Positions 2-23,887 of a stretch of 64,000 bases of DNA are shown in pieces. The notes beneath the pieces were generated by a model. That model worked only from the letters and a program-made list of their open reading frames with translations, made no database searches and was not told the DNA's origin. The stretch is taken from NCBI RefSeq assembly GCF_048403405.1, contig NZ_CP183129.1; one strand, written 5' to 3'. The position numbers and the translations under genes were made by a program. How positions within the stretch are numbered: the first letter of the stretch is position 1; every line of letters starts with the position of its first letter. Source of the stretch: Escherichia coli. GTDB lineage: Bacteria; Pseudomonadota; Gammaproteobacteria; Enterobacterales; Enterobacteriaceae.

Positions 2-574
2 TATGAACAGGGCGAAATTGTTATCAACGGCGAGAAAATCACGCGCCCCGATTACGGCGACATGCTGAAACGCGGCATTGGCTATACGCCAGAAAACCGC
101 AAAGAAGCGGGGATCATTCCCTGGCTGGGCGTTGACGAAAATACAGTGCTGACCAATCGGCAAAAAATCAGCGCCAACGGTGTGCTGCAATGGTCCACCA
201 TCCGCCGCCTGACCGAAGAGGTGATGCAGCGGATGACGGTCAAGGCCGCCAGTAGCGAAACGCCCATCGGCACGCTTTCTGGCGGCAATCAGCAAAAAGT
301 GGTGATCGGTCGTTGGGTCTATGCCGCCAGCCAGATTTTGTTGCTCGACGAGCCAACGCGTGGCGTCGATATCGAAGCCAAACAGCAGATTTACCGTATT
401 GTCCGCGAGCTGGCTGCCGAAGGAAAAAGTGTGGTGTTTATCTCCAGTGAAGTGGAGGAGTTGCCGCTGGTGTGTGACCGCATCCTGTTATTACAGCACG
501 GTACGTTCTCGCAGGAGTTTCACTCGCCGGTCAATGTGGATGAGCTGATGTCCGCCATTCTGTCTGTGCACTGA
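2..574 (+). CDS. yphE: ABC transporter ATP-binding protein, C-terminal part (5' end outside window)
   Basis: Open frame runs from window edge to TGA at 572-574; ABC signature region (LSGGNQQKV) and Walker B (LLLDEPTRGVD); followed by permease as in K-12 yph cluster. Confidence 0.85.
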   Translation, partial: YEQGEIVINGEKITRPDYGDMLKRGIGYTPENRKEAGIIPWLGVDENTVLTNRQKISANGVLQWSTIRRLTEEVMQRMTVKAASSETPIGTLSGGNQQKVVIGRWVYAASQILLLDEPTRGVDIEAKQQIYRIVRELAAEGKSVVFISSEVEELPLVCDRILLLQHGTFSQEFHSPVNVDELMSAILSVH

Positions 575-22352: not shown

Positions 22353-23129
22353 ATGTCCGAAACAAAAAACGAACTTGAAGATCTGCTGGAAAAAGCAGCA
22401 ACCGAACCGGCGCACCGCCCGGCCTTTTTCCGTACGCTACTGGAATCCACCGTCTGGGTGCCGGGTACGGCGGCGCAGGGCGAGGCTGTGGTTGAAGATA
22501 GCGCGCTTGATTTACAGCACTGGGAAAAAGAAGACGGCACCAGCGTCATTCCTTTTTTTACCTCGTTAGAAGCACTTCAACAGGCGGTTGAAGACGAACA
22601 GGCATTTGTCGTAATGCCCGTTCGCACATTGTTTGAGATGACCCTTGGCGAAACGCTCTTCCTTAATGCCAAACTGCCGACCGGTAAAGAATTTATGCCG
22701 CGTGAAATCAGTTTGTTGATTGGTGAAGAAGGAAATCCGCTGAGCAGCCAGGAAGTACTGGAGGGCGGTGAATCGCTGATATTATCGGAAGTCGCAGAGC
22801 CACCAGCACAAATGATTGATTCACTCACCACCTTATTTAAAACTATTAAGCCGGTGAAGCGTGCTTTTATTTGTTCAATTAAAGAGAACGAAGAGACACA
22901 GCCTAATTTACTTATTGGCATTGAAGCCGATGGTGATATCGAAGAAATTATTCAGGCGGCGGGAAGTGTAGCGACCGATACATTACCTGGCGATGAACCC
23001 ATCGATATTTGTCAGGTGAAAAAAGGGGAAAAAGGAATTAGCCACTTTATTACCGAACATATTGCGCCATTCTATGAACGTCGCTGGGGTGGCTTTTTGC
23101 GTGACTTTAAACAGAACCGGATAATCTAA
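22353..23129 (+). CDS. sseB: SseB family protein (enhancer of serine sensitivity)
   Basis: 258 aa from ATG 22353; synteny pepB-sseB. Confidence 0.88.
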   Translation: MSETKNELEDLLEKAATEPAHRPAFFRTLLESTVWVPGTAAQGEAVVEDSALDLQHWEKEDGTSVIPFFTSLEALQQAVEDEQAFVVMPVRTLFEMTLGETLFLNAKLPTGKEFMPREISLLIGEEGNPLSSQEVLEGGESLILSEVAEPPAQMIDSLTTLFKTIKPVKRAFICSIKENEETQPNLLIGIEADGDIEEIIQAAGSVATDTLPGDEPIDICQVKKGEKGISHFITEHIAPFYERRWGGFLRDFKQNRII

Positions 23130-23132
23130 AAT

Positions 23133-23160
23133 ATGCCGCCCCAAAGGGCGGCATTCGGGC
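23133..23160 (-). terminator. Rho-independent terminator (minus-strand U-tract; hairpin may also serve sseB)
   Basis: atgccgccc-caaa-gggcggcat hairpin; on minus strand followed by ATTTT. Confidence 0.6.
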
Positions 23161-23298
23161 TTACTTGCTGCTCTGAAGTTTGTTAACCACCAGTAAATTG
23201 TTACCGGAGAGACTCCGGTTATTATTTACCTCGGTTAACAGCGCACCAGAAACAATAAGTACGATACAAAAGCACCGTATCTTCATTGTGCGGTCCAT
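23161..23298 (-). CDS. Small hydrophobic protein (45 aa from ATG 23298, or 41 aa from ATG 23286), putative membrane toxin
   Basis: MDRTMKIRCFCIVLIVSGALLTEVNNNRSLSGNNLLVVNKLQSSK; first ATG sits in loop of hairpin tgcggtc/gaccgca (23289-23310); stop abuts terminator. Confidence 0.45.
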   Translation of the reverse strand: MDRTMKIRCFCIVLIVSGALLTEVNNNRSLSGNNLLVVNKLQSSK

Positions 23299-23507
23299 GC
23301 GAAGACCGCATCACGACAGCACCACTGGCGATATTGCCGCGATAGCAAGCGCTGAGACGCGCTTGCCCTAACGGTCGCGGAACATCCTTTCCTTGAGCCA
23401 GCGCCCGCTTGCGAGACGGCGGAAAGGGCCGGTGTCGATAATACGCTAAATAAACAATGATTACTCTCTTTCGCTTGACAAAAAGAGAGTTACTGGCGAG
23501 TATTGTG

Positions 23508-23608
23508 TCCGCTGAGACGCGCTTGCATTACTACGGTAATACAATCTGCTGGAAAGGCCGCGAACCAAACCAGCAACAAATAACCGCCTGATTTTGGCGG
23601 TTTTTTGT
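23508..23608 (+). ncRNA. sRNA candidate (TimR-like antitoxin sRNA), copy 1
   Basis: TTGACA at 23475-23480 with conserved gcgagtattg downstream; strong terminator aaccgcc...ggcggtt + TTTTTT at 23582-23606; 5' region gctgagacgcgcttgc is the complement of 23351-23366 in the minus-strand transcript. Confidence 0.5.
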
Positions 23609-23784
23609 TGCTTAAAGAAAGTGAATTTACATGTTTAAGTAATATCTTTTACCGGTTAGTATTTTTAATATTGAGCGGGATTTGTTTATATTTGTCTGAA
23701 TTCGGACTGATAAGCCAAATGAATTCAAAATCTATCCTTTTTTATCTACTTGACATCGTTGATGCATAAAGCGAGTATTGAGTA

Positions 23785-23873
23785 GACGAGATACACTTGC
23801 AGTAATACAACCTGCTGGAAAGGCCGCGAACCAGACCAGCAATAAAAAACCGCCAAATTCGGCGGTTTTTTAT
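23785..23873 (+). ncRNA. sRNA candidate, tandem paralog copy 2 (also bidirectional terminator with sseA)
   Basis: Second TTGACA (23750-23755) with same gcgagtattg box; ~75-nt 3' module near-identical to copy 1 and ending in ggcgg-TTTTTT; 5' seed differs from copy 1. Confidence 0.4.
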
Positions 23874-23887
23874 TGCCTGTAAAAAGC

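What the first reader, a model, noticed from the sequence alone, without database searches (positions are those of the whole stretch)
23289..23310. Start codon of the small hydrophobic ORF is embedded in a hairpin
The inverted repeat tgcggtc / gaccgca (7-bp arms, 8-nt loop) places the first ATG of the minus-strand small ORF in the loop, with the second in-frame ATG a few nucleotides downstream. Start-codon or RBS sequestration is a common way to keep type I toxin mRNAs translationally inert until processed.
Basis: seen in the sequence. Interest (0 to 1): 0.4.

Follow-up and report, generated by a model that had tools for sequence, protein, structure and literature searches.

The report
Known ribosome-site hairpin of timP toxin
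The hairpin is real, but it is the already published stem-loop SL4 of the timP (ryfA) toxin mRNA, which hides the ribosome-binding sequence rather than the start codon and is opened by RNA refolding, not by RNA cutting.

Summary
The window is E. coli, and the small minus-strand ORF is timP, carried on the ryfA RNA (Rfam RF00126, 309 bits). timP is the toxin of the timP/TimR type I toxin-antitoxin pair. The hairpin is stem-loop SL4 of the timP 5'UTR, studied by probing and mutation in the Salmonella orthologue (PMC11228461, PMC13000454). In my fold of the full transcript its pairs have probability 0.996 or more. Both arms are unchanged in 12 of 13 homologues and still pair in the thirteenth, down to about 73% overall identity.

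Two parts of the interpretation fail.
- **Start codon.** The loop ATG is not the start. It is part of the Shine-Dalgarno sequence (AUGGA here, AAGGA in Salmonella, Yersinia and Serratia copies). The second ATG (23286) is the start in RefSeq annotation, in the NCBIfam TimP model and in Salmonella mutagenesis.
- **Activation.** timP mRNA is not processed. A structural switch frees the SD: a site 1-3 pseudoknot lets site 2 pair with the 5' arm of SL4.

All four sites are present and complementary in this window. Verdict: real, functional, already known, low interest. One small point is untested. In E. coli the U at +134 weakens the SD and creates the loop AUG.

The parts
23128..23430 (-). timP mRNA, also called ryfA RNA. 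+1 is at 23430, and +N = 23431-N.
   Evidence: Rfam RF00126 matches 23128-23432 at 309.3 bits against a gathering score of 80. The +1 sequence GGCCCUUUCCGCCGUC equals the Salmonella in vitro transcription primer EHO-1421. C57/C58/G59, G33/C34, G102/C103, G125, G131 and C138 all fall on the same bases as in the papers (sequence, numbering).
23289..23310 (-). The core stem is G122-C141 to C127-G136 plus U128-G135 (23309-23290). The outer U121-A142 pair is weak.
   Evidence: Pair probabilities are 0.996-0.999 for the core, 0.965 for U128-G135 and 0.386 for U121-A142. It is in the MFE and centroid structures and in the Rfam consensus. All 7 pairs form in 13 of 13 homologues. It was probed and mutated in Salmonella.
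23294..23298 (-). Shine-Dalgarno sequence AUGGA (+133..137), which is AAGGA in Salmonella. ATG1 (23298-23296) is its first three bases.
   Evidence: The papers place the SD in the 3' flank of SL4. Predicted anti-SD pairing is -3.0 kcal/mol for E. coli and -5.1 for Salmonella, with 6-nt spacing to +145. Position 134 is A in 6 and U in 7 of the 13 aligned homologues.
23161..23286 (-). TimP coding sequence, 41 aa, starting at the second ATG (+145, 23286-23284).
   Evidence: RefSeq timP CDS in a 100% identical genome. NF040796 aligns from residue 5 of the 45-aa ORF. The Salmonella ORF runs +145..+261 and its ATG>AAG mutant makes no TimP.
23371..23376 (-). Site 2 (GACCGU, +55..60). It pairs with the 5' arm of SL4 (site 4, GCGGUC, +122..127 = 23309-23304) and so frees the SD.
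   Evidence: Six pairs are complementary in the window, with a duplex energy of -10.1 kcal/mol. The pairs form in 94.9% of cells across 13 homologues. S2*/S4* compensatory mutants were tested in Salmonella.
23397..23403 (-). Site 1 (CGCUGGC, +28..34) in upper SL1. It is the pseudoknot partner of site 3 and the alternative partner of site 2.
   Evidence: Seven pairs with site 3, duplex energy -13.8 kcal/mol. Three of the 7 pairs show compensatory changes. M2/M2' mutants were tested in Salmonella.
23323..23329 (-). Site 3 (GCCAGUG, +102..108) in the SL3 loop.
   Evidence: Same evidence as site 1. Yersinia and Serratia copies change both sides together (CACCGGA with UCCGGUG).
23344..23367 (-). 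SL2, which holds the TimR target (+65..81, 23366-23350).
   Evidence: A 17-nt exact repeat at 23350-23366 and 23510-23526 (D3). SL2 is the TimR-binding stem-loop in Salmonella. Its loop varies among E. coli alleles and tracks the upstream repeat.
23252..23289 (-). Next hairpin ('SL5', +142..179). The true start codon A145-U146-G147 pairs in its lower stem.
   Evidence: Unpaired probabilities of the start codon bases are 0.04, 0.05 and 0.22. The hairpin is in the Rfam consensus. It is 94.4% paired in 13 homologues, with one-sided changes only. The timP papers do not name it.
23133..23154 (-). Intrinsic terminator of timP.
   Evidence: A 9-bp stem with 7 G-C pairs followed by a T run. It forms the 3' end of the Rfam match.
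23509..23608 (+). timR antitoxin sRNA, divergent from timP. The ends are approximate.
   Evidence: The seed at 23510-23526 is perfectly complementary to timP +65..81. The terminator is at 23582-23602. It is collinear with the Salmonella TimR primer sequences. The arrangement matches that described.

Best explanation
The hairpin is stem-loop SL4 of the 5'UTR of the E. coli timP (ryfA) mRNA. timP is the toxin transcript of the timP/TimR type I toxin-antitoxin locus between sseA and sseB.

- **What SL4 does.** Its 3' arm and loop hold the Shine-Dalgarno sequence (AUGGA, +133..137). In the default fold the 30S subunit therefore cannot reach the site that serves the real start codon, the second ATG at +145.
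- **How it is opened.** The transcript is not cut. It refolds. Site 1 in SL1 leaves site 2 and forms a 7-bp pseudoknot with site 3 in the SL3 loop. The freed site 2 (GACCGU) then pairs with the 5' arm of SL4 (GCGGUC), which releases the SD.
- **How it is repressed.** The divergently encoded sRNA TimR pairs with the SL2 loop through 17 perfect base pairs here. This disrupts the pseudoknot and keeps SL4 closed.
- **The first ATG.** It is a by-product of an A-to-U difference at +134 inside the SD, not the initiation codon.

**Shown here:** the identity of the locus, the predicted stability of the hairpin in the full transcript, conservation of SL4, and the presence and complementarity of all four sites and of the TimR seed. 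**Shown elsewhere, in Salmonella:** SD sequestration, the switch, TimR action and the start codon. **Inferred:** that the E. coli allele behaves in the same way.
For: **Identity of the locus.**
- Rfam ryfA match at 309 bits.
- 100% identity to E. coli genomes annotated timP between sseA and sseB.
- NCBIfam TimP match at 83 bits against a cut-off of 45.
- The numbering maps base for base onto the Salmonella mRNA, using primers EHO-1421, +48 and +130.

**The hairpin.**
- Pair probabilities of 0.996 or more in the 303-nt transcript, and present in the MFE and centroid structures.
- Arms are identical in five E. coli alleles and in E. whittamii, although the SL2 loop varies.
- In the 13-sequence alignment, which includes plasmid copies at 72-75% identity, 5 pairs are invariant, 2 change on one side only, and all cells are paired.

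**The switch elements.**
- Site 2-4 gives 6 bp and site 1-3 gives 7 bp in the window.
- The pseudoknot has compensatory changes at 3 of 7 pairs, SL1 at 7 of 10 and SL3 at 4 of 9.
- The whole structure has 15 pairs with changes on both sides, against 7.9 +/- 1.9 in shuffles and 5 or fewer in slid controls.

**TimR.** A 17-nt perfect complement followed by a terminator.

**Literature.**
- Probing, SL4 deletion, the 'open SD' mutant, S2*/S4* and M2/M2' compensatory mutants and RNase H accessibility.
- No processing of the mRNA.
- Start codon at +145.
Against: - All the mechanistic experiments used the Salmonella allele. No E. coli timP translation or probing data were found in the paper library.
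- A 2026 APEC paper states that it remains to be determined whether E. coli ryfA encodes a toxic peptide. UPEC ryfA phenotypes were complemented by alleles with the ORF destroyed.
- The E. coli SD is weaker, at -3.0 against -5.1 kcal/mol.
- E. coli has A56 where Salmonella has G56. This strengthens 2-4 pairing (A-U in place of G-U) and puts a C-A mismatch into the published site 1-2 register. The balance of the switch may therefore differ.
- SL4 shows no compensatory substitution in my alignment, so covariation neither supports nor contradicts it.
- The published energies make SL4 (-11 kcal/mol) more stable than the 2-4 pairing (-7). The authors themselves say that extra factors may be needed.
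Confidence: 0.87

Rival explanations
1. The hairpin sequesters the start codon (the first ATG) of a 45-aa toxin ORF, and the mRNA stays inert until a nuclease removes or remodels the structure, as in hok, tisB, zorO and dinQ.
For: - ATG1 opens the longest ORF.
- A UPEC paper also predicted a 45-aa ORF from +135.
- Some database entries start at the equivalent MDRA (P0070).
- Processing is the common route for type I toxins (introduction).
Against: - A133 and U134 are unpaired in the loop, with probability 1.0. They are exposed, not sequestered.
- ATG1 is missing in 6 of the 13 aligned homologues, including Salmonella.
- The NCBIfam model and RefSeq both start at ATG2.
- The only SD-like element before ATG1 is GGU (-2.4 kcal/mol). 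It lies in the 5' arm, which is paired in both conformations.
- No processing is seen for timP, and 5' truncations kill translation.
Confidence: 0.04
2. In E. coli the transcript acts mainly as the regulatory RNA RyfA. On this view SL4 is a structural or stability module, or a protein-binding one (for example for ProQ), and not a translational gate, because TimP is not meaningfully produced.
For: - UPEC ryfA phenotypes are complemented by ORF-disrupted alleles.
- The APEC paper says a toxic peptide has not been demonstrated in E. coli.
- A paper title reports ProQ binding to RyfA (PMC10664665, listed, not read).
- The E. coli SD is weaker than the Salmonella one.
Against: - The ORF is intact and conserved. 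timP is present in 5425 of 5426 complete E. coli genomes, and the NCBIfam score is well above the cut-off.
- SD, SL4, sites 1-4 and the TimR seed are all retained with exact complementarity.
- The SL2 loop and TimR seed change together among alleles, which implies that selection on repression continues.
- The two roles are not mutually exclusive.
Confidence: 0.12
3. The inverted repeat is a chance hairpin without function.
For: About 36 such 7-bp hairpins are expected by chance in 64 kb, and 86 are present.
Against: - It lies in a curated RNA family consensus.
- It is invariant across genera and on plasmid copies.
- It has been probed and mutated in the orthologue.
Confidence: 0.01

Closest known systems
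SL4 of Salmonella Typhimurium timP mRNA (Eleftheraki & Holmqvist, PNAS 2024, PMC11228461; Eleftheraki et al., NAR 2026, PMC13000454)
   Same: - Same position, +122..141.
- Identical stem sequence, GCGGUC/GACCGC.
- G131 lies in the loop and G125-C138 is a stem pair.
- The SD is in the 3' flank and the start codon at +145.
- The same sites 1-4, and the same divergent TimR arrangement.
   Different: - U134 in place of A134. This gives AUGGA rather than AAGGA, a weaker predicted SD, and an extra in-frame AUG in the loop.
- A56 in place of G56 in site 2.
- No uORF AUG at +53.
- TimP is 41 aa rather than 38, with a divergent C-terminal half.
- No direct experiments exist on the E. coli allele.
RBS-sequestering stem-loops of processing-activated type I toxin mRNAs (hok/sok, tisB/istR-1, zorO, dinQ, aapA1)
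   Same: - A small membrane toxin.
- The SD is locked in a stable hairpin, which prevents co-transcriptional translation.
- An antisense sRNA targets the active form.
- tisB also uses a pseudoknot at its ribosome standby site.
   Different: timP is not cleaved. Activation is a conformational switch within the primary transcript, and 5' truncation inactivates rather than activates.
Translational riboswitches and RNA thermometers (SD/anti-SD hairpins with alternative pairings)
   Same: Two mutually exclusive folds decide whether the SD is accessible. The authors themselves note the resemblance.
   Different: No ligand or temperature trigger is known. The anti-anti-SD (site 2) is itself controlled by a pseudoknot and by a trans sRNA.

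Membership tests
ryfA/timP RNA (Rfam RF00126) | Covariance-model score at or above the family gathering threshold, over the full model | tested here: met
   309.3 bits against 80, model positions 1-296 of 296, E = 1.3e-86
TimP toxin protein (NCBIfam NF040796) | HMM score above the curated cut-off, with the model start at the protein N-terminus | tested here: met
   83.9 bits against 45. The profile aligns 1-40 to residues 1-40 of the 41-aa form, and to residues 5-44 of the 45-aa form.
timP SL4 structural switch | A stable stem-loop at about +122..141 with the SD in its 3' flank, directly upstream of the start codon | tested here: met
   Pair probabilities of 0.996 or more. AUGGA at +133..137, with 6-nt spacing to AUG +145.
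timP SL4 structural switch | Site 2 complementary to the 5' arm of SL4 (site 4) | tested here: met
   GACCGU pairs with GCGGUC over 6 pairs, -10.1 kcal/mol. 94.9% of cells are paired in 13 homologues.
timP SL4 structural switch | A site 1-site 3 pseudoknot of about 7 bp | tested here: met
   Seven pairs in the window, -13.8 kcal/mol. Three of the 7 pairs show compensatory changes.
timP SL4 structural switch | Site 1-site 2 pairing that locks the inactive form | tested here: inconclusive
   RNAduplex finds a 7-pair duplex with an internal mismatch at -8.5 kcal/mol. In the published register (G33-C57), E. coli A56 faces C34. No covariation count was made for this pairing.
timP SL4 structural switch | Opening SL4 raises translation, and translation depends on 2-4 pairing | not testable with these tools
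   Shown only for the Salmonella allele.
Type I toxin-antitoxin system | A small hydrophobic toxin ORF plus an adjacent antisense sRNA with extended complementarity and its own terminator | tested here: met
   A 41-aa TimP with a hydrophobic N-terminus. A 17-nt perfect complement on the + strand at 23510-23526 and a terminator at 23582-23602.
Type I toxin-antitoxin system | The toxin is growth-inhibitory and is repressed by the sRNA | not testable with these tools
   Shown for Salmonella. Stated as undetermined for E. coli.
Processing-activated type I toxin mRNAs (hok/tisB type) | The primary transcript is inert and nucleolytic processing is needed for translation | not testable with these tools
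   The literature on the Salmonella orthologue reports the opposite: the full-length mRNA is translated, no shorter isoforms appear, and truncations are inactive. The locus is therefore not filed under this class.

The most novel reading that the evidence does not exclude
In the Escherichia/Citrobacter lineage the A134U change does two things at once. It weakens the SD (AAGGA to AUGGA), and it places an in-frame AUG in the permanently single-stranded SL4 loop.

My evidence does not exclude that E. coli initiates at this loop AUG. Such initiation could be at a low level and independent of the SL4 switch. It would give a 45-aa MDRT-TimP, the ORF the UPEC literature predicts.

Alternatively, the weakened SD may be the reason no TimP peptide has yet been seen in E. 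coli or Shigella. Either outcome would mean that the E. coli allele is gated differently from the Salmonella model.
Probability: 0.1. Interest if true: 0.35.

Novelty: already known. Interest (0 to 1): 0.1.

Why it matters
The timP switch is a published example of how a toxin mRNA can avoid co-transcriptional translation without being cut. This window simply carries the E. coli copy, with every element intact. It also settles which ATG should be annotated. The one residual point of value is that the E. coli allele differs from the studied Salmonella allele at two switch positions (U134 in the SD, A56 in site 2). Whether E. coli makes TimP at all remains unsettled in the literature.

Tried and rejected
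- **Protein word search.** The search for homologous proteins with TimP reached essentially only Escherichia and Shigella entries, plus two partial fragments labelled Klebsiella pneumoniae, because the word index limits its reach.
- **sseB-anchored scan.** It gave 80 species loci. Only 11 carry timP next to sseB, by nhmmer with a single sequence and with a profile. It produced no distant homologues.
- **Profile search of 1.84 billion proteins.** This added only three new full-length TimP relatives.
- **Plasmid BLAST.** This gave the most diverged copies, from Yersinia and Serratia.
- **Covariation test for SL4.** It is uninformative, because both arms are essentially invariant. I could not reach the Serratia proteamaculans, Rahnella and Hafnia chromosomal copies used in the papers. 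Their accessions are, but those records are not in the collections I could read.
- **SL3 register error.** In one search I gave SL3 in the wrong register, which produced 29.9% pairing. This was corrected (94.9%).
- **Supplements.** The NAR 2026 supplement is not held as text.
- **E. coli start-site data.** A paper search for ribosome-profiling evidence found nothing beyond the Salmonella paper.
- **Rejected explanations.** A chance hairpin, ATG1 as the start codon, and processing-dependent activation.

Full report
**1. The observation**

The minus strand at 23310-23289 reads UGCGGUC-UUCGCAUG-GACCGCA. The longest minus-strand ORF (23298-23161, 45 codons, MDRTMKIR...) begins with the ATG that forms the last three loop bases. 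The next in-frame ATG is at 23286, two bases past the 3' arm.

As a bare pattern this is not unusual. The window has 86 perfect 7-bp hairpins with 3-10 nt loops, and dinucleotide shuffles give 36 +/- 6.5. The case for it rests on context, not on the repeat itself.

**2. What the locus is**

- The window is E. coli. [quoted passage not shown]
- Window 23128-23432 (-) matches Rfam ryfA (RF00126) end to end at 309 bits, against a gathering score of 80.
- The ORF matches NCBIfam NF040796 (toxic_TimP) at 83 bits against a cut-off of 45.
- timP is present in 5425 of 5426 complete E. coli genomes.

**3. Literature on the orthologue**

- Andresen et al. 2020 (PMC7667032) showed that Salmonella ryfA encodes the toxin TimP. 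The ORF runs +145..+261, and ATG>AAG at +145 abolishes both protein and toxicity. The divergent sRNA TimR represses it.
- Eleftheraki & Holmqvist 2024 (PMC11228461) defined four stem-loops in the 5'UTR. SL4 'sequesters the Shine-Dalgarno sequence'. Lead and RNase T1 cut its loop (for example at G131) but not its stem. Deleting SL4 abolishes translation. The mRNA is not processed. A pseudoknot between SL1 and SL3 is required for translation.
- Eleftheraki et al. 2026 (PMC13000454) added the pairing of site 2 (C57, C58, G59) with the 5' flank of SL4. This pairing frees the SD. They tested it with S2*/S4* compensatory mutants, an 'open SD' mutant and RNase H accessibility. They also described an inhibitory site 1-2 pairing.

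**4. Mapping onto the window**

The Salmonella primers give +1 = GGCCCTTTCCGCCGTC, +48 = AACCCATGGCCGTAAGCG and +130 = CGCAAGGACCGCAACATGA. The first primer is identical to the window sequence from 23430. With +N = 23431-N and no indels, every numbered base of the papers lands on the same nucleotide: G33/C34, C57/C58/G59, G102/C103, G125, G131, C138 and A145 (sequence, pairs listed).

The SD is +133..137. RefSeq also starts timP there, at window 23286. The NCBIfam profile begins at residue 5 of the 45-aa ORF.

**5. My own tests of the hairpin**

- *Folding.* In the 303-nt transcript SL4 is in both the MFE and the centroid structure, and the whole RNA has z = -6.44. The six core pairs have probability 0.996-0.999, U128-G135 has 0.965, and the outer U121-A142 has only 0.386. 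Folded alone, the 22-nt hairpin gives -12.9 kcal/mol and the 30-nt segment around it gives -14.2, with z = -3.98. A133 and U134 are unpaired with probability 1.0. The first ATG is thus displayed in the loop, not buried.
- *The true start codon.* A145-U146-G147 is predicted to pair at the base of the next hairpin (+142..179), with unpaired probabilities of 0.04, 0.05 and 0.22.
- *Conservation.* Among 80 species loci anchored on sseB, only 11 carry timP. I added three relatives found through a protein profile search and four plasmid copies from Yersinia and Serratia at 72-75% identity.
- *Pair counts for SL4.* In the 13-sequence alignment SL4 has 7 pairs. Five never vary, two vary on one side only (G-C to G-U and U-G to C-G, both in L083), and 100% of cells are paired. 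There is no compensatory change, so covariation says nothing either way.
- *Pair counts for the rest.* SL1 has compensatory changes at 7 of 10 pairs, SL3 at 4 of 9 and the pseudoknot at 3 of 7. The whole structure has 15 pairs with changes on both sides, against 7.9 +/- 1.9 in shuffles and 5 or fewer when partners are slid.
- *Reading.* The near-invariance of SL4 fits a segment under several overlapping constraints: the stem, the SD, and pairing with site 2. This is an inference.
- *Within E. coli.* The 35 bases around SL4 are identical in five divergent alleles, although the SL2 loop differs and tracks the TimR seed.

**6. The first ATG**

Position 134 is U in Escherichia, Citrobacter, Superficieibacter, L082 and L084. 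It is A in Salmonella, L083 and the Yersinia and Serratia plasmid copies, giving AAGGA. ATG1 is therefore not conserved, and it lies inside the SD.

Predicted anti-SD pairing is -5.1 kcal/mol for Salmonella AAGGA and -3.0 for E. coli AUGGA. The GGU ahead of ATG1 gives -2.4. That GGU sits in the 5' arm, which is paired either with the 3' arm or with site 2.

A UPEC paper nevertheless predicted the 45-aa ORF from +135, and some database entries start at the equivalent MDRA (P0070). Start-site use in E. coli has not been tested directly.

**7. The other parts in the window**

- Site 1 (+28..34) and site 3 (+102..108) can form 7 pairs, at -13.8 kcal/mol.
- Site 2 (+55..60) and site 4 (+122..127) can form 6 pairs, at -10.1 kcal/mol.
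- Site 1-2 pairing is weaker, at -8.5 kcal/mol, and E. coli A56 faces C34 in the published register.
- TimR lies divergently on the + strand at about 23509-23608. Its seed at 23510-23526 is a 17-nt perfect complement of timP +65..81, and its terminator is at 23582-23602.

**8. Verdict on the interpretation**

Caveats remain. All the mechanism experiments are on the Salmonella allele. E. coli studies find ryfA phenotypes that do not need the ORF, and state that a toxic peptide has not yet been shown in E. coli.

**9. Novelty**

The feature is already known. The structure, its role and its antagonist pairing are published, and the gene is routinely annotated. Interest is low. The only open point is the behaviour of the E. 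coli-specific U134 and A56 variants.

Noticed in passing
L018 vs L024; L087 vs L086; L088 vs L085; L015 (timP strand, just upstream of SL2): Some homologous loci carry a clean deletion of about 150-160 nt. It lies exactly between the two direct repeats formed by the TimR seed (read on the timP strand) and its target in SL2. Both divergent promoters and timP +1 to about +62 (SL1, sites 1 and 2) are lost, while SL4 and the ORF remain intact. I saw it in S. arizonae, a Serratia plasmid (its sister plasmid is identical in the aligned flanks) and a Y. similis plasmid. A C. amalonaticus locus shows the same fusion in the multiple alignment, but I did not compare it pairwise. This looks like a recurrent way of inactivating toxin and antitoxin in one step.
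   Followed up: partly
window 23787-23876 (+), with 23564-23741 (-): There is a second TimR-like gene. Its 3' 70 nt are 84% identical to TimR (23802-23871 against 23536-23605). It has its own TTGACA-17-TATTGA promoter-like site and a terminator. Its 5' seed is different (GAGAUACACUUGC) and does not match this timP SL2 well. The Rfam IS128 sRNA (RF00125, 179 bits) lies between the two copies. O157 and some other E. coli strains have a shorter sseA-timP spacer.
   Followed up: partly
window 23252-23289 (-): The true start codon (+145..147) is predicted to pair in the lower stem of a second hairpin, +142..179, inside the ORF. This hairpin is in the Rfam consensus but is not named in the timP mechanism papers. 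It is 94% paired across 13 homologues, with only wobble-compatible one-sided changes, so covariation is inconclusive.
   Followed up: partly
L085 (Y. pseudotuberculosis pGDT4), L086/L087 (Serratia plasmids), L088 (Y. similis plasmid), L083: timP/TimR copies sit on conjugative plasmids next to phospholipase-D-family genes. One copy (L083) lies beside hha and a umuC-like gene. This suggests a plasmid-maintenance role in addition to the chromosomal sseA-sseB copy.
   Followed up: no
80 sseB-anchored species loci (L002-L081): timP is patchily distributed. Only 11 of 80 Enterobacteriaceae species loci have it beside sseB: Escherichia, some Citrobacter, Salmonella and Superficieibacter. C. sedlakii (L019) keeps only a 3' remnant.
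   Followed up: partly
window 23344-23367 (-) and 23510-23526 (+); L003, L089, L090, L091: The SL2 loop, which is the TimR target, is hypervariable among E. coli alleles and changes together with the upstream TimR seed, while SL3 and SL4 are identical. In K-12 BW25113 (L090) I found no exact match of 10 nt or more within 350 nt upstream.
   Followed up: partly
window 23375 (+56) and 23297 (+134): There are two E. coli-specific differences from Salmonella at switch positions. A56 improves 2-4 pairing and weakens the published 1-2 register. U134 weakens the SD. The Salmonella uORF AUG at +53..55 is absent here (GCG).
   Followed up: partly
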